Assembly (NCBI GenBank): GCA_024275415.1
Contig: JAJRZD010000012.1
Coordinates: 30,001-62,000 of the forward strand
Length of the DNA stretch: 32,000 bases
Direction: 5' to 3'
Origin: an archaeon
Lineage (GTDB): Archaea; Asgardarchaeota; Thorarchaeia; Thorarchaeales; Thorarchaeaceae
The position numbers and the translations under genes were made by a program. Below are positions 4,153 to 30,268 of this stretch, piece by piece; within the stretch, counting starts at the first letter, position 1, and the number at the start of each line of letters is the position of its first letter. The notes under the pieces were generated by a model. The model worked only from the letters and a program-made list of their open reading frames with translations, searched no databases and was not told where the DNA came from.

Positions 4153-4431
4153 ATGAGGTATTCTGGGAGATATAAGATGGGACATGACAGATTAGGACAC
4201 TATAGCGTCTGTGAGAAGTCATTGCAGGTGACAAAAAAGAAGGCAGAAACGGATGATGACGTTCTTGCACTCGTTGTATTCGGGAGCTATGCTAGAGGCA
4301 AGCCCTACGATGATGTAGATATGGCAGTTGTCATATGGCCCTCAAGAACCGATTCACGTTGCATCTCATTCGCTGAGAGAATGGAACGATTTTCGCCTTC
4401 GATATTATTTGTATCTGGAAGGGATTCTTGA
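4153..4431 (+). pseudogene. Truncated or degenerate minimal nucleotidyltransferase (MNT)
   Basis: VLALVVFGSYARGKPYDDVDMAVV is the GS..DxD nucleotidyltransferase motif. The C-terminal half degenerates and stops early, and there is no adjacent HEPN partner. Confidence 0.65.
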
Positions 4432-4719
4432 TGAATGAGCGACTCTTGGTTCAGATAGAAGAGGATGACCCGGCACAGGATAGGTAATCTCGTATGCCTC
4501 CTTCGGGAATCCGTAATAATCGTAGAACACGTGCAGGTTTCGTGCTCCCAGCAAGGTCGCTTCACTCTCTTCCCAATGGGCACTTGTCACGACTATTACA
4601 TCAGGTATGGTCAATTGGTCAGGAAGACGCTGCATGAACTCAATCATCATCACATGGCTTGGGTCGCCAAGTATTGACAATGGGCCACCACCATGGGAGA
4701 GGTAGACTATCTCGACCAT
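4405..4719 (-). pseudogene. 5' fragment of a LigB/DODA-type (YgiD-like) extradiol ring-cleavage dioxygenase
   Basis: MVEIVYLSHGGGPL...VVTSAHWE...YDYYGFPKEAYEITYPVPGHP matches the DODA N-terminal motifs. The ORF ends at about 105 aa, before the DHG motif (full-length members are about 260 aa). Confidence 0.8.
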
Positions 4720-4952
4720 TTCAAAAAACAAAACTCCTAGTTGACAGATTAGTCATTCGACCAGTCTTCCGAATCATTACTATTTGTCCATGTGGCAGGA
4801 GGTTATGCAATGCACTCACTTGCGGTGCTCACATCTTAGTACATTGCGACCAAGAGTTCATGCCTGCTTCAAGATTGACGACCTTGCTCAATTCACTCAG
4901 AGTCCCTTCCAATATCAGACAGGACAACTGTTACGTTCAGTGCTACCTCGAT

Positions 4953-5560
4953 TCAATTGTAGAATTCGACACCTTGGTCAATGTCGGAATGTACATTCGT
5001 GCCGTCCTTTGTCCTGCCTTCTTCGTAGGTTGTACGGGATTCCATCGGAGCAACCGAGATGATTTTCGCAATCCCATGATATTCAAGGAGTTTCCTGTTA
5101 GAGATGTCGTTCCCTTGCTCATCTTGGATAATCCATTCATGTCCAGGCTCTATTGAGTCAAATTGCCAATCTTTCAAGCACGCCTCTCGAAAAGTGTCAT
5201 CATCATCTTGAAGTATGTTCTTTGTTCTGTTCAAGTAATGTGAACTTTCAAGCACGCCTCTCGAAAAGTGTCATCATCATCACCATTGACAATGACTTCT
5301 TTGCCAGTGTAAGCATCAATAACCACCCGCTGAATCAGAGAAGGATCTCGCGCTTCAGGAACCCGTCGTCTGAACCGAAAATCATCGGATATGAGAGTAC
5401 TCTGTCCTGTTAAGAAAATCAGTAAAACTGACAGTGCCAGGCCAACTGACATCAGAAAACCAGTATATACCGGCATTGCCAATGAGATACCAGTTGTTGT
5501 CACAGCAATAACGACGATACACATGACTAGATAGCCAAAGTTTGTTTTTCTCGCTCTCAA
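4953..5560 (-). pseudogene. Two-TM membrane protein with a probable ubiquitin-like (beta-grasp) domain, frameshifted by a 74-bp insertion/duplication
   Basis: ORFs 5231-5560 and 4953-5255 both contain DDDDTFREACLK. Removing one repeat plus the spacer (74 bp) gives a 534-nt continuous frame of 177 aa. Confidence 0.7.
5171..5281 (-). repeat. Exact 37-bp direct repeat pair (5171-5207 and 5245-5281) flanking a 37-bp unique spacer (5208-5244)
   Basis: On the + strand both copies read CTTTCAAGCACGCCTCTCGAAAAGTGTCATCATCATC. The spacer is TTGAAGTATGTTCTTTGTTCTGTTCAAGTAATGTGAA. No third copy was seen nearby. Confidence 0.95.
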
Positions 5561-5634
5561 AAGGTCATAGGCCCCCTAAAGGTTTAATGAGGTTGTAATA
5601 TAGTTCCACCAAGTTTCACTGTTACTTCGTTCAC

Positions 5635-22517: not shown

Positions 22518-25415
22518 GTGAAGCGTGTACTGTTGCTCCTAGGGCTAGTTCTGTCGCTAGTAGCCCTAGGAATACCTATCTGTCCCGACAGAGTGCCCGA
22601 TGAACAAGTTGCCAAACCAGTCGCCACCCCAGAGGAGTTTGTGGATGTCGGCGAGAAGAAGGATGTGACGATCAGGTTCGAAAGGGAGTTGACTGTAAAT
22701 GAGATTGAAAATTTCCGGAGGCAGGGAATCTATTTCGATGAAGACCCGAAACACATCGGGGATGTATACCTAGCACGGGCATCTGATGTGGCTCTGGAAT
22801 ATCTGGAAAGGAATCCTATATTTGAAAGGGCCGAACCTCTCAAAAGATCATTCTACCAGTTGCCTAGGGACGTTTCAGCAGGTGAAACTTTTACAAATCT
22901 GACTTGGAACATAAAAGACGGCCAAGGACTGAATCTCACGGGAAAGGACATCATGATTGCCGACCTCGATACTGGGATACAGTGGAGGCATCCGGACTTC
23001 CTCTTTCCTGATGGCGGCGAATACAGCTGGTTCGATGTGTCAATCAATTGGGTCTTTGATAATGGCACGGACGGGATCGATACCAACGGTGACTTGTCGA
23101 TATCTGCGAAAGAAAAGCTCTATTCCATCGACACTGACAACAACTCCGTATTTGATATGGAGTACGATTGGCTCTGGATGGACAACGGGTCTAGCATTGG
23201 TGTGATAGATGATGGTGACTCCTTCTTTATCGTGAACGATACGAACTCTGACGGTAATTTCGATTCAGGAGATACCCTCGTCGGACTGAAGACGCCAAAG
23301 ACGAAGTACATCGTACACAAACCAAGTGGGAGCATCCAAGTCTGGGATCGCGACGTCAACTTGACCTCTAGCACATACTACGATACAGATGGCCATGGCA
23401 CAGGGGTTGCCGGCATATTGAATGGGGGACACCTTGGATTCAGTAGGCAATTCGTCGGCATGGCCCCAGATGCGGAACTCATGGCAATCAACATATTCGG
23501 CTCAGATGGACTCTCGGTCGAAGAGGGTTTGATATGGGCCCGAGACCATGGTGCAGATGTCGTTCTGATCGAGGTCGGGTCGTGGACATACGACTTCTTG
23601 GATGGCTCAAGTAATGCTGAAGCTATGATAGACTCATTAACGGAACAAGGAATCCCAGTGATTGTGCCAGCAGGGAATCTAGGTGGGGCAAAGAGACACA
23701 CTGACACGGCGATAACTGGTAATGTCACTCTTACAGAGCAGTTCGGCGCACCAACTGGGACAGGCATCGGCACTTTTTACATAACGCTCCTGTGTGACCA
23801 GTTGCTAGATAATGCAAAGGTCAATATCACTGAACCCACATCAAGTGGCTCGCTGACCCATCAAATCTCCTTGGGAAGCGGTTATAATTCGTGGTCGTCC
23901 ATATCAACACCTAACGTAACTATCTGGGCATTCGTCGCTAATTCCACGAAACCTGGAAATCACATGATTGCCATTGCTATATCGGGCACAATAGAAGATA
24001 CACAGTTGTGGTCTGTAGATATCCAAATCCAGACGACCGGACACATTCATTTCTATATCTCTGATGATGCAACCTCGTGGAGCGGAGGTGCATATTGGAA
24101 CACTTCGACAAACACGCATTTGATCACATGGCCTTCTACAGCAGACACTGCAATATCCGTGGCATCATATATGTCCCGAAATCTGTGGATTCCTGGCTAT
24201 GGTCAGATTGCCCCCTATTCAGCTGTCGGTCCAAGGATTGACGGGACGCCAAAAATATCAGTTGCGGCCCCGGGTGGATGGGACATTGTTTCGGCATGGT
24301 CCAATGACTCTGCATGGGCAAGTTGGATGACTGGGAAAGGAGGACTGCCCCTATATCCACGCTTTGGCGGGTATCAGCTCTTCAGCGGCACATCAGCGGC
24401 AGGACCACATGTCGCAGGAGCTGCTGCATTGGTTCTTCAGCTCGATATTACCCGAAACCTCAGAATGAAAGATATCATAGAGGCATCTGCATACCAGGAC
24501 ATCTACACAGGAAACCTTGCAAGATACCCGGCAATTCAAAATTCAACAGTCTGGGGTTATGGCAAGCTCAACGCCTGTGCAGCTGTAGAAGAAGTGATGC
24601 AATATCCTGTCATTAATGACCTCTTGCATTCACCTTCAAGTCCAGAATACAACGATACAGTCACAGTGACAGCGAATGTTTCAAACGCGGACTATGTTGG
24701 AATTCATTGGACGACTAACAATTGGACAACAGGCTACGACGCTAACATGACATTCACAAATGGTTTGTACGTATTCGACATACCAGAGTATCCGTACGGG
24801 ACTCGTGTTGACTATAAGATCACCCCGGTGAATACGTCTGCCCTGATGAATCCAGAACAGTCGAGTTGGTATACAGTTGGGGACATGACCCCACCAATAA
24901 TAGACCTCTTTGCTCACAATGCTTCAAGTAGTGTGTTCGATAATACTAGCGTACACGTATCCGTGCTTGTATCAGAACCGCCCGGGTCGTCAGGAATAGA
25001 TTCAGTCGTCCTTGAGGTTTCAGTGGACAACTGGGTCACACTGACGACTACAGTCATGGTATCCAACGGGACACACTATGAGGGGACGATTCAGCCTCAC
25101 ACGTATCCTGCTACTGTCACGTTCAGAGTCGCTGTCAACGACTCTGCTGGAAACAGTAAGGCAAGCTCAGAAGTCACCTATACGATTGAGGAGTCTGGCT
25201 CTACTACGACGACTACCACTTCGACCACTACTACAACTACGACCACAACAGATACCTCGACTACAACAACGTCCGACACAGACACGACTGGGCCTGGCTC
25301 GACAACACCCACAATTGGGATAACTGACTGGATACGTGAGAACATGCTCGTGATGCTTGGAGCAGCATTTGCAGTGTTCATCATCGTGTTAATCATGGTA
25401 GTTCGCAGAAGATAA
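22518..25415 (+). CDS. Secreted, C-terminally membrane-anchored subtilisin-like S8 serine protease
   Basis: Signal peptide. Catalytic D151 (ADLDTG), H293 (DGHGTGVAG), oxyanion N (PAGN), S626 (FSGTSAAGPHVAGAAAL). Ig-like C-terminal domains, Thr-rich linker, TM helix and RRR tail. Confidence 0.95.
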   Translation: MKRVLLLLGLVLSLVALGIPICPDRVPDEQVAKPVATPEEFVDVGEKKDVTIRFERELTVNEIENFRRQGIYFDEDPKHIGDVYLARASDVALEYLERNPIFERAEPLKRSFYQLPRDVSAGETFTNLTWNIKDGQGLNLTGKDIMIADLDTGIQWRHPDFLFPDGGEYSWFDVSINWVFDNGTDGIDTNGDLSISAKEKLYSIDTDNNSVFDMEYDWLWMDNGSSIGVIDDGDSFFIVNDTNSDGNFDSGDTLVGLKTPKTKYIVHKPSGSIQVWDRDVNLTSSTYYDTDGHGTGVAGILNGGHLGFSRQFVGMAPDAELMAINIFGSDGLSVEEGLIWARDHGADVVLIEVGSWTYDFLDGSSNAEAMIDSLTEQGIPVIVPAGNLGGAKRHTDTAITGNVTLTEQFGAPTGTGIGTFYITLLCDQLLDNAKVNITEPTSSGSLTHQISLGSGYNSWSSISTPNVTIWAFVANSTKPGNHMIAIAISGTIEDTQLWSVDIQIQTTGHIHFYISDDATSWSGGAYWNTSTNTHLITWPSTADTAISVASYMSRNLWIPGYGQIAPYSAVGPRIDGTPKISVAAPGGWDIVSAWSNDSAWASWMTGKGGLPLYPRFGGYQLFSGTSAAGPHVAGAAALVLQLDITRNLRMKDIIEASAYQDIYTGNLARYPAIQNSTVWGYGKLNACAAVEEVMQYPVINDLLHSPSSPEYNDTVTVTANVSNADYVGIHWTTNNWTTGYDANMTFTNGLYVFDIPEYPYGTRVDYKITPVNTSALMNPEQSSWYTVGDMTPPIIDLFAHNASSSVFDNTSVHVSVLVSEPPGSSGIDSVVLEVSVDNWVTLTTTVMVSNGTHYEGTIQPHTYPATVTFRVAVNDSAGNSKASSEVTYTIEESGSTTTTTTSTTTTTTTTTDTSTTTTSDTDTTGPGSTTPTIGITDWIRENMLVMLGAAFAVFIIVLIMVVRRR
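25200..25320 (+). repeat. Low-complexity Thr/Ser-rich linker (ACN codon repeats) within the S8 protease
   Basis: STTTTTTSTTTTTTTTTDTSTTTTSDTDTT encoded with mixed ACT/ACG/ACC/ACA codons. Confidence 0.85.
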
Positions 25416-25467
25416 AGAATGGTCTGCCTCGCCTTGGATGGAAAATCGAAGGAGAGGAGATGCTTCT

Positions 25468-27510
25468 TTATACCAAGTCAAGGGTGTCGAGTATGAACGC
25501 ATAGATAAAGGCAAAGTCCTTCATGTAGTCGTATCTGCCACTTGCGCTGAAGTGTCCCGTTTCCATCTTGGTCTTGAGCAATAGCAGGTTGTTGTCTGTC
25601 TTCAGAGCACGGAGCTTTGCAGTCCATTTCGCAGGTTCCCAGTACTGCACTCTGGGATCGTTATAGCCGGCTGTGACGAGTATCGCTGGGTAGTCCTTTG
25701 CCTCAACATTATCGTATGGCGAGTATTCAATCATCCAGCTGAACTGTTCTTCGACCTTGGGGTTCCCCCATTCATTGAACTCGAAGGTCGTGAGTGGGAT
25801 CGACTCGTCCAACATGGTGTTTATGACATCGACAAAAGGCACAGAAGCGACGACACATTTGAACAGGTCGGGACGCATATTAGTGACAGCACCCATTAGG
25901 AGACCTCCGGCACTCCCACCATAAATTGCCAGTCTGTTGCTGGACGTGAATTTCTGTTCAATGAGATACTCAGCACAAGCAATGAAGTCTGTGAAGGTAT
26001 TCATCTTCTTCGCCAATTTGCCTTCGTGATACCACGGTTTCCCATATTCGCCGCCACCGCGTATGTGAGCGATGGCAAAAATAATCCCCCTCTCAATCAA
26101 TGATAGGCGCTTGAAGTCGAAATGGGGATCCATCGGGTACCCGTAAGAGCCGTACCCGTAGAGAAGCAAAGGGTTCGAGCCGTCCATCTTCGTCCCACTC
26201 TTGTAGGCAAGAGAGATTGGTATCTTTGTGCCGTCTGGAGCTGTTGCATACCTACGCTCAGTGATGAACTGTGAAGGGTCGTAGTTCTTAATCTCCTCGA
26301 CCTTCTTCAACTCCAGTTCTCGGGTTGCCATATTGTAGTCATAAGTCGTCTGAGGGGTGACGGGCGAGCTGAACACAAATCGATAGATGTCAGACTCGAA
26401 CTCATAATGACCGATGGGACGGATGCCATAGATGTCTTCAGGAAACTTGACATCATGTAGTTCGCCATTCGAGAGGTCGTAGACCATCAGGTTCGCGTAG
26501 CCCCCTTGTCGCTTCTGTATCACGAGGAAGTTTTGGTACGCCTCTACAGAGTTCAGGCGGACATCGGGGTCGTGTGGGATGATCTCATCCCAATGCTCAG
26601 GTGCCACCTTTGAAACGGGGGTTCTCATCAGTTTGAAGTTGATCGCACCGTCCGCGCTTGTCAAGAAATAGAAATACCCGCTGTGGTGGTCAATATTGAA
26701 CTCGATACCCCGAGTCCGCGGAAAGAAGACTTCCAAATCCAGTGAAGGCTCTGACAGGTCGATGTACCTGATCTCATTGGTTTCAGAGCTGGATGCTGAG
26801 ATGGTGATGAAGAGATACTTCTTGTCCTTCGATTTGGACATTCCCAGAAGGAAGGTTGTGTCCTTCTCCTCGTAAATCCTGATGTCATCTGATTGAGAAG
26901 TCCCCAGCCTGTGAAACAATACCGCATAAGGACGGTGGATGTCGTCAAGCTCCGTGTAGAAGATTGCGTCATTGGTGAGGGCCCATTGGATTTGTCCGCC
27001 CACACCTGTTATCGTGTCGAGGGTTTCACCACTCATCAAATCCACAATCCGAGTTTCGTAGGTCTCTCCACCTGTGAAGTCAACAGAATATGCCATCTTT
27101 GATTGGTCAGGACTTATCTTCCATGTGCCAACACTCATGTACTTCCTGCCTTCAGCCAAGGCGTTCTCGTCAAGGACGATCTCCTCCTGCGCGTCAAGAC
27201 TTTTATATTTCCGGCAATGGATACGGTAGTTCTTCCCTTCCTCAGTTCGCGAATAATAGTAGTAATCACCATACCTCATGGGCACAGACTCATCGGTTTC
27301 TTTGATTCGCCCTTTCATCTCTTGGAATAGGAATTCTTGTAGGGTTTCGGTGTGTTTGGTCATTTCCTTAGTGTAGAAGTTCTCGGCTTCTAGGTACTCG
27401 ATGACCGCAGAGGTGTCCTTTTCTCGTAGCCAGTAATAATCATCAGTGAATGTTCGTCCGTGCAGCTCGAATGTACGAGGCTCTTTTTTTGCGATAGGCG
27501 GAGATGTCAT
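25468..27510 (-). CDS. ptrB: Oligopeptidase B (prolyl oligopeptidase family S9A)
   Basis: PPIAKKEP...DDYYWLRE, beta-propeller region, LLYGYGSYG, IAHIRGGGEYG, GGSAGGLL nucleophile, NDPRVQYWEPAKWTAKLR, GHFSASGR. The likely start is ATG 27510. Confidence 0.96.
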   Translation of the reverse strand: MTSPPIAKKEPRTFELHGRTFTDDYYWLREKDTSAVIEYLEAENFYTKEMTKHTETLQEFLFQEMKGRIKETDESVPMRYGDYYYYSRTEEGKNYRIHCRKYKSLDAQEEIVLDENALAEGRKYMSVGTWKISPDQSKMAYSVDFTGGETYETRIVDLMSGETLDTITGVGGQIQWALTNDAIFYTELDDIHRPYAVLFHRLGTSQSDDIRIYEEKDTTFLLGMSKSKDKKYLFITISASSSETNEIRYIDLSEPSLDLEVFFPRTRGIEFNIDHHSGYFYFLTSADGAINFKLMRTPVSKVAPEHWDEIIPHDPDVRLNSVEAYQNFLVIQKRQGGYANLMVYDLSNGELHDVKFPEDIYGIRPIGHYEFESDIYRFVFSSPVTPQTTYDYNMATRELELKKVEEIKNYDPSQFITERRYATAPDGTKIPISLAYKSGTKMDGSNPLLLYGYGSYGYPMDPHFDFKRLSLIERGIIFAIAHIRGGGEYGKPWYHEGKLAKKMNTFTDFIACAEYLIEQKFTSSNRLAIYGGSAGGLLMGAVTNMRPDLFKCVVASVPFVDVINTMLDESIPLTTFEFNEWGNPKVEEQFSWMIEYSPYDNVEAKDYPAILVTAGYNDPRVQYWEPAKWTAKLRALKTDNNLLLLKTKMETGHFSASGRYDYMKDFAFIYAFILDTLDLV

Positions 27511-27622
27511 GGCACCGCAATTGTCCAACTAGAAAGATAAACGTTCTTCAAAAGGAGAAACAGGCTATACTATCCACTCTCAGGCTATCAGAGAGATAAA
27601 ATAGTGCAAGGGGAAGATATAA

Positions 27623-30268
27623 TTGGCTTCCCTCAAGCCAGAATACAACAAGGTGTTTTTTATGCTCAGTAAAACGCGCGCCATAATGATATTTGGAATT
27701 ATCATATTCCTTCTTGGCTCTACAATCTCCGTCAATTTGACAGACAATGCCAAGACAAATCAAACTCAGGACAGCATGGATGGTTCCACGTCGGATGAGT
27801 TCTCTGCTTCATCGGTCAATTTGCAGACTGACTCTTGGAAAATGAACCATCTTCCAAATGGGGATTTTGAGGGGTGGACAAATCCACATAACCCACAGTA
27901 TTTTACTACCACACGAACCACTGAAAGATATGTGTGGTACGCATCGTCGCCGTATCCTGTCAACGAGTCCAGTAGGTCTCTAGGGATGCAGGTACGCGCT
28001 GTAGACAATGCCTATCCTTCCGAAGCACGGTTATCGCCACAGAATCAGGTATTCTGGAATAACCCCACGAATCTCACGATGAGATTTGACTACTTTTTGG
28101 ATGCTTTCATGAACCCATCTACAAACAGCTATTTCAAGCTTGAAATCACAGTTAAAGCGCTTTCCAACATCCGGCTGACATATTATCTGGCTGGAAATAC
28201 GACCCTCTCGAACTCTACATACTACGGATATTATGTCCTAGACAGTCCACTATCACAATGGAATCGTTTTGATAGGAACGTCACTCAAGACTTGATTGCT
28301 GCGACTGGAAATACTCCTACTCAATTCAATACGTTCTATTTCTATCTTAAGACTAACGAGAGTTCCTATCAAAGAACATTCATTGATGACTTTTATCTGG
28401 TGAATGGCACAGTACGGATTGGAGGAAGCGTGAACAATGGCAATTTTGAAACCTCAGGGACATGGTATTGGCTGACAAACAATGATCCAGGGGATATCGT
28501 TCAGACTTCGGATCGCCAGAACGGTGATTGGGCAGCTAACATGACCGTGGTATCACGAGGGAACATTAGTAAAGCAACAATCTCCCAGCGAGCAGGTGTA
28601 AGACTTGCAGACCAGAACCCTGACCGTTTCATGTTCTATTGGAAGATTGATCAGTGGATTAATCCCAATCAGTACTCATATGCTTACTTGTCTGTGGAAA
28701 TGGAAAATCAAACAAGTTCATTCTATCTATACTATTGGTTTGCATACGCAGGGACACCGGCTCCATTCTCATACAGTGGCTACAACCATGTCCAAGTAGA
28801 TGGCTTCAACACTACGGGTTCTTGGAACCTGTTCGACCGCAGCATATGGGAAGATATAACGTCGTTCAACTCGACTTCAGAGGTCTTTGTCAGGGACATC
28901 GAGTTCATCGTTTATGCTGACAGATATCCAAGCACGGTCAGTCTCTTTGTTGATGACTTGAAGGTTGAGGCTGCTATTCTGAACGACATGAGCTACGAAG
29001 ATCAAGGAGATGTTGGAGATTATGTCCGTTCTTGGGGATCATGGAATATCGAAACAGCAAACGAATTCAGAGTTACAGACTTCGCATATACCGGCTCTAA
29101 GGCTGCAAACCTGACAATGACACCCTCAACCTATGTAGGTTTTTATCGGAATCTGAAAGCCATGCCCTTCAACGCATCGACTGAGGTTATCCTAGACTTC
29201 AATTGGTACTTAGACGAATTTACATCTACTGGGAACGACTACATCGAGTTCTATTTTTACTTTGGAACCGATGTAGGAATTCATTACTTGATTGCTGCTG
29301 GGCCTGGTGCGTCGGTGTCCAACACATCTACTGAGAAGTATATCTATATTGAAGGCGCCAATATGACGGGGGCATGGCGCAACGCAGAACTGGATCTCGC
29401 GGCGGATTACTTGGCCCTATTTGGGACTGTGCCTGATACCACTATTAGCGACATTTCTCTGATTGCCGAGGGGGATGCTGGTGGCCGATTGGAACTCATT
29501 CTTGATGACCTGTACCTTGTTGAAGGGACATGGCCCAGAGTGTCTGGTCTGACTCAATTACCAGCACTGCCAGAAACAGGGATGGATGTCAACATTTCTG
29601 TATCAACATACGATAAGAATCTAGATTCTGTTCTCTTGCGGTATCGGGTCGATGGCAGTTCGTGGAATTCTCTCCCGATGAGCAAGGAGGGTGCGTCCAT
29701 ATTCACCGCTACTATTCCCGGGCAAGACTGGGCGTCATTGGTAGAATACTACATCTATGCGAATGACACCTACGGACATGAAACTCTAGGAATGTCTGGC
29801 TCGGAGTACTACTCGTTTACCGTGCAGGATACGATAGCTCCGACAATGCAGGTTCAAGGTCTTACCAATGAGTCGACAGTTGGCGGAGTGGTAGACATGA
29901 CCGTTATACCAGACGATAACAGTTCAGGCATCCAACGAGTCGAGATATCTGTTGATGGAACCACTGTATCGAATGATACCACATCGCCTTACGAATACAG
30001 CTGGGACACGGTTTCTGAAGATAATGGACAGCATGTCATCGTGATAAAGGCTGTCGATAATGCTGGGAACACGTACGAGATGAAGTACATTGTCACAGTG
30101 TATAACGCTGAGACCTCAACACCAACCACACCGACTACCTCAACGAATACACCAGAGCCTCCTGGTTCACCGGACATGCTACTGATCGTTGTGATTGGAA
30201 TCGCAGTTGTTGCTGGCGTGGTCGTCATTCTCTTCGTTCTCTTGCGACAACGAACCTTGAGCCATTAG
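27623..30268 (+). CDS. Large cell-surface glycoprotein: three CBM/galactose-binding-like jelly-roll repeats, two Ig-like domains, S/T/P linker and C-terminal TM anchor
   Basis: Repeat starts NGDFEG, NGNFET, DMSYED. Repeat ends FIDDFYL, FVDDLKV, ILDDLYL. DTIAP...YEYSWDT...AVDNAGN is bacterial Ig-like. Many N-x-S/T sequons. Confidence 0.8.
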   Translation: MASLKPEYNKVFFMLSKTRAIMIFGIIIFLLGSTISVNLTDNAKTNQTQDSMDGSTSDEFSASSVNLQTDSWKMNHLPNGDFEGWTNPHNPQYFTTTRTTERYVWYASSPYPVNESSRSLGMQVRAVDNAYPSEARLSPQNQVFWNNPTNLTMRFDYFLDAFMNPSTNSYFKLEITVKALSNIRLTYYLAGNTTLSNSTYYGYYVLDSPLSQWNRFDRNVTQDLIAATGNTPTQFNTFYFYLKTNESSYQRTFIDDFYLVNGTVRIGGSVNNGNFETSGTWYWLTNNDPGDIVQTSDRQNGDWAANMTVVSRGNISKATISQRAGVRLADQNPDRFMFYWKIDQWINPNQYSYAYLSVEMENQTSSFYLYYWFAYAGTPAPFSYSGYNHVQVDGFNTTGSWNLFDRSIWEDITSFNSTSEVFVRDIEFIVYADRYPSTVSLFVDDLKVEAAILNDMSYEDQGDVGDYVRSWGSWNIETANEFRVTDFAYTGSKAANLTMTPSTYVGFYRNLKAMPFNASTEVILDFNWYLDEFTSTGNDYIEFYFYFGTDVGIHYLIAAGPGASVSNTSTEKYIYIEGANMTGAWRNAELDLAADYLALFGTVPDTTISDISLIAEGDAGGRLELILDDLYLVEGTWPRVSGLTQLPALPETGMDVNISVSTYDKNLDSVLLRYRVDGSSWNSLPMSKEGASIFTATIPGQDWASLVEYYIYANDTYGHETLGMSGSEYYSFTVQDTIAPTMQVQGLTNESTVGGVVDMTVIPDDNSSGIQRVEISVDGTTVSNDTTSPYEYSWDTVSEDNGQHVIVIKAVDNAGNTYEMKYIVTVYNAETSTPTTPTTSTNTPEPPGSPDMLLIVVIGIAVVAGVVVILFVLLRQRTLSH

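What the first reader, a model, noticed from the sequence alone, without database searches (positions are those of the whole stretch)
5171..5281. Repeat-spacer-repeat (37/37/37 bp) inside a gene: candidate off-target CRISPR spacer integration
Seen: two identical 37-bp copies separated by a unique 37-bp segment that resembles neither flank. The duplicated 37 bp is native coding sequence (DDDDTFREACLK), and deleting one repeat plus the spacer exactly restores a 177-codon frame. On the minus strand the repeat is GATGATGATGACACTTTTCGAGAGGCGTGCTTGAAAG. Established: many archaeal CRISPR repeats are 30-37 bp and end in (A)TTGAAA(G/C). Cas1-Cas2 integration duplicates one repeat length around a spacer-sized insert, and ectopic integration at repeat-like sites has been observed experimentally. 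Inference: the adaptation machinery mistook this coding stretch for a repeat and knocked out a gene, leaving a natural fossil of CRISPR-driven mutagenesis or of the birth of an array. Replication slippage would not supply a foreign 37-mer. No cas gene is in the window.
Basis: partly seen in the sequence, partly recalled or inferred. Interest (0 to 1): 0.8.

Follow-up and report, generated by a model that had tools for sequence, protein, structure and literature searches.

The report
Off-target CRISPR spacer scar in gene
A small membrane-protein gene of an uncultured Asgard (Thorarchaeota) archaeon is split by a 37-base foreign-looking piece flanked by an exact 37-base duplication, most likely a spacer that the cell's own type I-D CRISPR integrase inserted at the wrong address; this kind of event is known but rarely seen this cleanly in nature.

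Summary
Window 5171-5207 and 5245-5281 are identical 37-mers around a unique 37-mer (5208-5244). Removing 74 bp restores one open frame that aligns end to end with uninterrupted homologues.

The same genome (a Thorarchaeota MAG) carries an intact Cas1-Cas2-Cas4 module within a type I-D locus. It also has four arrays whose repeats are exactly 37 nt, start with G and end in ATTGAAAG (one array ATTGAAAT). Their spacers are 34-41 nt, mostly 37-38. On the gene's sense strand the duplicated segment starts with G and ends in TTGAAAG. That heptamer occurs at about 1.2e-4 of positions. Beyond G1 and the heptamer, the resemblance to the repeat is not significant. No other isolated repeat-insert-repeat of this geometry exists in the 3.5-Mb assembly.

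Not shown:
- No protospacer was found in any collection searched.
- No same-species empty allele was found.
- No sequencing run was listed, so read support is untested.

Best reading (about 0.85): a recent ectopic integration by the type I-D adaptation complex. This is a natural counterpart of the "neo-CRISPR" events of Nivala et al. 2018. This scan has already reported similar scars in other genomes, so it is a new, well-supported member of a known kind.

The parts
5245..5281 (-). Pseudo-repeat copy 1 (upstream in gene orientation). It is native coding sequence (DDDDTFREACLK), begins with G and ends in TTGAAAG.
   Evidence: It is identical to 5171-5207. Aligned in register it shares 17 of 37 positions with the genome's 37-nt CRISPR repeat, including G1 and the 3' heptamer.
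5208..5244 (-). Spacer-like insert of 37 nt with 30% GC (genome 47%). It is unique in the genome and contains the in-frame TGA (5233-5231) that ends the 5' gene fragment.
   Evidence: Its length falls in the mode of the host's spacer lengths (34-41 nt). No match was found in any collection.
5171..5207 (-). Pseudo-repeat copy 2, followed by the native continuation of the gene (DWQFDS...).
5231..5560 (-). 5' fragment of the disrupted gene. It encodes two N-terminal hydrophobic helices and the start of the conserved domain. The start is TTG 5560 or ATG 5524, and the stop lies inside the insert.
   Evidence: the called product is 97 aa.
4953..5207 (-). 3' fragment of the disrupted gene, shifted by +2 relative to the 5' fragment. 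Its frame stays open upstream through the insert to a GTG at 5255.
   Evidence: It is 46-59% identical to the C-terminal part of intact homologues of about 160-200 aa.

Best explanation
This is a scar of ectopic (off-target) spacer integration by the organism's own type I-D CRISPR adaptation complex (Cas1-Cas2, with Cas4). Inferred mechanism: the integrase, loaded with a 37-nt prespacer, engaged a coding stretch that happens to begin with G and end in TTGAAAG, the same termini as the genuine 37-nt repeat. It then made its two staggered strand-transfer attacks exactly one repeat length (37 bp) apart. Gap repair duplicated the 37-bp target on both sides of the insert. The 74-bp gain shifts the frame and brings in a TGA, which splits a small membrane-anchored protein gene. 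The event looks recent: the two copies are still identical and neither gene half carries any other lesion. Shown here: the geometry, the match to the host's repeat and spacer lengths and repeat termini, intact adaptation genes, uniqueness in the genome, and that uninterrupted genes are the ancestral state. Inferred: that Cas1-Cas2 did it, that the 3' heptamer plus a 37-bp ruler set the cut sites, and that the insert is foreign DNA.
For: (1) The structure is exactly 37/37/37. (2) The genome holds four arrays (on C113, C29, C6 and C98, the last apparently continuing on C100) with repeats of exactly 37 nt. Their pattern is G...AAGCTTCA.. AAAGAAGATTGAAAG, with a final T in C98. Their 83 spacers are 34-41 nt long, with 19 of 37 nt and 27 of 38 nt. 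(3) Full-length Cas1 (341 aa, 258 bits to TIGR00287), Cas2, Cas4 and Cas6 lie next to the C113 array. The type I-D effector genes Cas10d-like, Csc2 and Cas3' lie at the end of C6, and Cas3' continues at the start of C113. The genome's other adaptation module is type I-B on C26. It belongs with 30-nt repeats and so does not fit a 37-bp duplication. (4) The duplicated segment ends exactly in TTGAAAG, which has a frequency of 1.2e-4 per position and strand (874 sites in the genome). It also begins with G like all four repeats. In-register identity is 17/37 (p about 0.016 against random 37-mers), while the reverse orientation gives 10-12/37. (5) The restored protein aligns without gaps across the junction with intact homologues. 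The conserved motif TFR-x-AC-x2-W-x-F spans the junction. Three homologues sit next to the same molybdopterin oxidoreductase gene. (6) The insert is single-copy and unlike either flank, and no inverted repeats were found. Its 30% GC is in the lowest 6% of the host's own spacers. (7) No other such structure exists in the assembly. (8) Precedent: Pyrococcus furiosus Cas1-Cas2 integrates in vitro at non-CRISPR sites that share features with the repeat. Those attacks are a fixed repeat length apart and fall at G/C borders (PMC6698737). Off-target genomic integration was detected in E. coli by Nivala et al. 2018, as cited in PMC7054753 and bioRxiv 10.1101/148544.
Against: No protospacer was found, so a foreign origin and a PAM are not shown. 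The assembly is a metagenome bin (92.9% complete, 4.46% contamination). That the window's contig and the CRISPR contigs share one cell rests only on binning and on composition: GC is 47.5-48.5% and the tetranucleotide correlation is 0.95-0.98. Among 796 non-array TTGAAAG sites, 12% resemble the invariant repeat columns upstream of the heptamer at least as well as this site, so similarity beyond G1 and the heptamer is not significant. The upstream flank does not resemble the conserved leaders. The nearest intact homologue is only 59% identical over the C-terminal part, so there is no true empty allele of the same species.
Confidence: 0.85

Rival explanations
1. Assembly artefact or chimeric join. 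On this reading the repeat-insert-repeat loop was produced by the metagenome assembler and does not exist in any cell.
For: The genome is a MAG of 127 contigs. No read-level check was possible.
Against: The insert occurs nowhere else in the assembly, so there is no second locus to be chimeric with. An artefact would not be expected to reproduce the host's exact repeat length and modal spacer length, nor to end the duplication on the repeat's own terminal heptamer. The contig is 86.8 kb and is syntenic with relatives on both sides.
Confidence: 0.04
2. A CRISPR-independent insertion. Candidates are a repair-associated duplication with filler DNA, or the footprint of an unknown element that makes long target duplications.
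For: No protospacer or PAM ties the insert to the adaptation pathway. Similarity to the repeat is limited to G1 and 7 terminal bases.
Against: From general knowledge, known transposases and casposases make target duplications far shorter than 37 bp, and their inserts carry terminal inverted repeats; none is present here. A tandem-duplication origin requires the insert to be native sequence, but no homologue has extra residues at this point and the insert carries an in-frame stop. The triple coincidence of 37-bp duplication, 37-nt insert and TTGAAAG end would remain unexplained.
Confidence: 0.07
3. A selected, functional unit rather than an accident. It could be a nascent mini-CRISPR array that yields a crRNA, or an adaptive knock-out of the gene.
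For: The pseudo-repeats lie in the sense orientation of a gene, so they would be transcribed in crRNA orientation. The would-be 8-nt handle CTTGAAAG differs from ATTGAAAG by one base.
Against: There is no leader. 20 of 37 repeat positions differ, including the whole 5' half. Neither the real nor the pseudo-repeat folds better than shuffled sequence. There is only one spacer.
Confidence: 0.04

Closest known systems
Non-canonical (off-target) Cas1-Cas2 spacer integration giving 'neo-CRISPR' units (Nivala, Shipman and Church, Nat Microbiol 2018; not held in the library, known here through citations in PMC6698737, PMC7054753 and bioRxiv 10.1101/148544)
   Same: A spacer-sized insert is flanked by a duplication of one repeat length, at a genomic site that partly resembles the repeat and lies outside any array.
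   Different: Those events were seen in E. coli type I-E with over-produced Cas1-Cas2 and 28-bp duplications. This one is a fixed natural event in an Asgard archaeon with a type I-D module and a 37-bp duplication, inside a coding gene. According to bioRxiv 10.1101/148544, natural cases in that paper were only circumstantial, in two other species.
In vitro off-target integration by Pyrococcus furiosus Cas1-Cas2 (Grainy et al., NAR 2019, PMC6698737)
   Same: It is an archaeal integrase. Its non-CRISPR sites share sequence features with the repeat, its attacks are a fixed repeat length apart, and they fall at G and C borders. From my own knowledge, the P. furiosus repeat also ends in ATTGAAAG.
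   Different: There the repeat is 30 bp, and the critical elements were the leader-repeat junction and an A-rich mid-repeat block. Here the only clearly shared elements are G1 and the 3' heptamer, and the evidence comes from a genome scar, not from biochemistry.
Isolated or mini CRISPR arrays proposed to arise by off-target spacer acquisition (Shmakov et al., CRISPR J 2020; cited for this in PMC13142298; paper not held)
   Same: It is a single repeat-spacer-repeat unit away from cas genes in a genome that has a cognate system.
   Different: Isolated arrays are recognised by repeats like the host's. Here the 'repeat' is unrelated coding sequence except at its ends, so array finders that rely on repeat families would not link it to the system.
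Similar scars reported earlier by this scan in other genomes (for example e1-5242581, e1-2136164, e1-3619437)
   Same: They share the exact repeat-length duplication around a spacer-length insert inside a gene or element.
   Different: In several of those cases the host's CRISPR system could not be examined. Here repeat length, spacer length and terminal motif could all be compared with the host's own arrays.

Membership tests
Off-target Cas1-Cas2 spacer integration (neo-CRISPR unit) | The target duplication equals the host's repeat length. | tested here: met
   The duplication is 37 bp. Four host arrays have 37-nt repeats.
Off-target Cas1-Cas2 spacer integration (neo-CRISPR unit) | The insert length lies within the host's spacer-length distribution. 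| tested here: met
   The insert is 37 nt. The 83 host spacers are 34-41 nt with a mode of 37-38.
Off-target Cas1-Cas2 spacer integration (neo-CRISPR unit) | The host encodes an intact adaptation module cognate to that repeat. | tested here: met
   Full-length Cas1, Cas2 and Cas4 lie beside the C113 array, and type I-D effector genes lie on the adjoining contig. Catalytic residues were not inspected. Co-residence in one cell rests on binning.
Off-target Cas1-Cas2 spacer integration (neo-CRISPR unit) | The target resembles the repeat at the integration borders. | tested here: met
   G1 and the terminal TTGAAAG are shared. The rest of the repeat is not significantly similar.
Off-target Cas1-Cas2 spacer integration (neo-CRISPR unit) | The insert derives from a protospacer with the system's PAM. 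| tested here: inconclusive
   No match was found in the own genome, IMG/VR, JGI metagenome contigs, GTDB genome contigs, INPHARED, PLSDB or 85 family genomes.
Off-target Cas1-Cas2 spacer integration (neo-CRISPR unit) | An empty (pre-integration) allele exists. | tested here: inconclusive
   Homologues, including syntenic ones, are uninterrupted with one copy. No same-species empty allele was found.
Off-target Cas1-Cas2 spacer integration (neo-CRISPR unit) | The structure is supported by sequencing reads. | not testable with these tools
   No run could be listed.
Canonical CRISPR array | It has a leader, repeats of the host's family, and several spacers. | tested here: not met
   The upstream flank is coding sequence unlike the conserved leaders. 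20 of 37 repeat positions differ. There is one spacer only.
Transposon, IS or MITE insertion with target-site duplication | It has terminal inverted repeats, is multicopy, and makes a short target duplication. | tested here: not met
   No inverted repeat was found. The insert is single-copy. The duplication is 37 bp.
Tandem duplication by slippage | The duplicated unit is contiguous native sequence. | tested here: not met
   The 37-nt insert matches neither flank and has no counterpart in any homologue.

The most novel reading that the evidence does not exclude
The scar records the minimal in vivo target of a type I-D integrase: a 3' TTGAAAG anchor plus a strict 37-bp ruler ending on a G, with no leader needed. 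The resulting unit, transcribed in sense within the host gene's mRNA and carrying a near-native 8-nt handle, would be a nascent CRISPR locus that can yield a crRNA. That would be a snapshot of array birth in an Asgard archaeon.
Probability: 0.08. Interest if true: 0.75.

Novelty: new member of a known kind. Interest (0 to 1): 0.5.

Why it matters
Off-target spacer integration is well documented in the laboratory, but natural, datable examples are few. Here the host's own arrays can be laid beside the scar, which makes the attribution unusually firm. It shows three things:
- CRISPR adaptation can inactivate host genes in wild archaea.
- A type I-D integrase keeps its 37-bp spacing away from any leader.
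- The repeat's terminal heptamer may be enough to attract the integrase.

It also gives a concrete substrate, the empty allele, for biochemical study of Asgard type I-D adaptation and for models of how new arrays originate.

Tried and rejected
Protospacer searches, all negative or at chance level:
- Own genome: the best hit was 19 nt with one mismatch.
- IMG/VR: the full spacer and two 20-mers.
- JGI metagenome contigs and GTDB genome contigs: a 26-nt core.
- INPHARED phages and PLSDB plasmids: only hits with E at least 0.1.
- 85 genomes of the same family, allowing up to 3 mismatches.

Other alleles:
- A 28-nt core of the pseudo-repeat in metagenome contigs found nothing.
- A DNA search of 40 relatives found nothing.
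- Exact-protein look-ups of the neighbouring transporter and of the called gene fragment returned nothing.
- The contig of the closest homologue, P0005, could not be delivered as DNA.

Sequencing runs: none was listed.

Second candidate: a 40/32/40 repeat on C38 turned out to be two adjacent leucine-rich-repeat units, not a scar.

Repeat family in relatives: the 25-nt repeat core was not found in the 85 family genomes searched. These are MAGs, where arrays are often unassembled. The nearest Cas1 relative (59% identity, G014) had no array within the 4 kb fetched.

Function of the broken gene: there was no Pfam family and no usable ESM Atlas hit.

RNA folding of the real and pseudo-repeats showed no significant structure.

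The Nivala 2018 and Shmakov 2020 papers are not held in the library. Their content is taken only from citing papers and from my own memory.

Full report
**Observation.**
- Window 5171-5207 and 5245-5281 are identical 37-mers, and a unique 37-mer lies between them at 5208-5244.
- The bases just outside the two copies differ on both sides, so the structure is exactly 37/37/37.
- On the minus strand a gene is split into two open frames. The first is 5231-5560, which stops at a TGA inside the insert. The second is 4953-5255.
- Deleting the insert plus one repeat copy (74 bp) gives a single frame. It has 177 codons from the TTG at 5560, or 165 from the ATG at 5524 that a gene caller chose.

**The uninterrupted gene is ancestral.**
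- The C-terminal fragment finds open frames of about 160-200 aa in 23 of 36 genomes of the same family, at up to 47% identity. A 160-aa metagenomic protein is 59% identical.
- The restored protein aligns with these without a gap at the junction. The conserved motif TFR-x-AC-x2-W-x-F runs straight across it.
- In three relatives the homologue lies beside the same molybdopterin oxidoreductase gene as in the window.
- The duplicated 37 bp are therefore native coding sequence, and the 74 bp are a derived insertion.
- The protein family has no Pfam match and remains of unknown function.
- The oxidoreductase's closest relatives (67-73% identity) are all Thorarchaeota MAGs, so the organism is an Asgard archaeon.

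**The host's CRISPR systems.**
- The window lies on contig C110 of a 3.53-Mb, 127-contig bin.
- The bin has two Cas1 genes.
- One belongs to a complete type I-B operon on C26. Both ends of C26 run into the leader and first bases of a 30-nt repeat that is also found on C63.
- The other Cas1 lies on C113 with Cas2, Cas4, Cas6 and a DUF2797 gene, directly next to an array.
- Type I-D genes (Cas10d-like, Csc2, Cas3') sit at the end of C6, and Cas3' continues at the start of C113.
- Four arrays (C113, C29, C6, C98) have repeats of exactly 37 nt. They share G1, a conserved AAGCTTCA core and the end AAAGAAGATTGAAAG (final T in C98). They also share conserved leaders and degenerate distal repeats, which fix their orientation.
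- Their 83 spacers are 34-41 nt long, most often 37 or 38.

**Comparison of scar and system.**
- Read on the gene's sense strand, the duplicated segment starts with G and ends in TTGAAAG.
- That heptamer occurs at 1.2e-4 of position-strands, or 874 sites in the genome.
- In-register identity to the real repeats is 16-17 of 37, against 10-12 in the opposite orientation. About 1.6% of random genomic 37-mers score as high.
- Most of that signal is the heptamer. Among 796 other TTGAAAG sites, 12% match the invariant upstream repeat columns at least as well.
- The upstream flank is unlike the leaders.
- The duplication length (37) fits the type I-D-associated repeats and not the 30-nt type I-B repeats.
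- The insert is 37 nt, single-copy and 30% GC. Only 6% of the host's own spacers are that AT-rich.
- Genome-wide scans for exact or about 90%-identical repeat-gap-repeat structures found nothing comparable outside arrays and tandem coding repeats.

**Mechanism.** The simplest account is an ectopic integration.
- Cas1-Cas2 carrying a prespacer attacked the two strands 37 bp apart, at a site whose ends mimic the repeat's ends.
- Gap filling then duplicated the target.
- This matches what P. furiosus Cas1-Cas2 does in vitro at non-CRISPR sites: a fixed spacing, G/C borders, and partial repeat-like features (PMC6698737).
- It also matches the genomic off-target events reported for E. coli by Nivala et al. 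2018, as cited.
- Off-target acquisition is also one proposed origin of isolated arrays (Shmakov et al. 2020, cited in PMC13142298).
- That the heptamer acts as an anchor and the complex as a 37-bp ruler is an inference from a single event.

**What remains open.**
- No protospacer was found in any collection, which is usual for archaeal spacers. Foreign origin and PAM are therefore unproven.
- No same-species empty allele was found.
- No sequencing run could be listed, so an assembly artefact is excluded only by argument. The insert exists nowhere else in the assembly, and an artefact would not copy the host's repeat length, spacer length and repeat terminus.
- The link between the scar's contig and the CRISPR contigs rests on binning and matching composition.

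**Verdict.** The phenomenon is known, and this scan has already reported similar scars in other genomes. This is therefore a new and unusually well-documented member of a known kind, not a new kind.

Noticed in passing
G000 contig C113, about 5471-5581 (L013): Two consecutive spacers of the type I-D array are identical 37-mers (spacers 3 and 4). This is a duplicated repeat-spacer unit near the leader end.
   Followed up: no
G000 contigs C6 (about 22,900-28,134) and C113 (1-4,767): The type I-D locus is split across two contigs, with Cas3' broken at the contig ends. It appears to be flanked by two 37-nt arrays (C6 and C113). A DUF2797 gene sits between the leader and cas1 on C113.
   Followed up: partly
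G000 contig C26 (L014), both ends: The type I-B operon contig ends on both sides in the same leader plus the start of the 30-nt repeat, as an inverted pair. This implies two divergent arrays, and C63:1-1236 carries one of them.
   Followed up: partly
G000 contig C63, 37,434-38,863: A further array has a 31-nt repeat (GTTTCAACCCTACTTCTAGTCTGATTCAAAC) with spacers of 35-39 nt. It is a third repeat family in this genome.
   Followed up: no
G000 contigs C125, C53, C8, C9, C80, C45 (contig ends): Tandem coding repeats of 54 or 87 nt, encoding (D/E)KRFEAMQKQ-like units, sit at several contig ends. They are probably one or a few repeat-rich genes that break the assembly.
   Followed up: no
window 4153-4731: A short MNT-type nucleotidyltransferase ORF converges on and overlaps a truncated LigB/extradiol-dioxygenase fragment (Pfam hits). 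It looks like a remnant of a rearrangement just downstream of the oxidoreductase.
   Followed up: no
window 4953-5255 (-): The frame of the 3' gene fragment stays open through the whole insert, back to a GTG inside the upstream repeat copy. A truncated C-terminal domain could in principle still be translated.
   Followed up: no
L042 (G030:C4) 1-370: A long T/G-rich low-complexity tract lies upstream of a Cas1 homologue in a genome of the same phylum.
   Followed up: no
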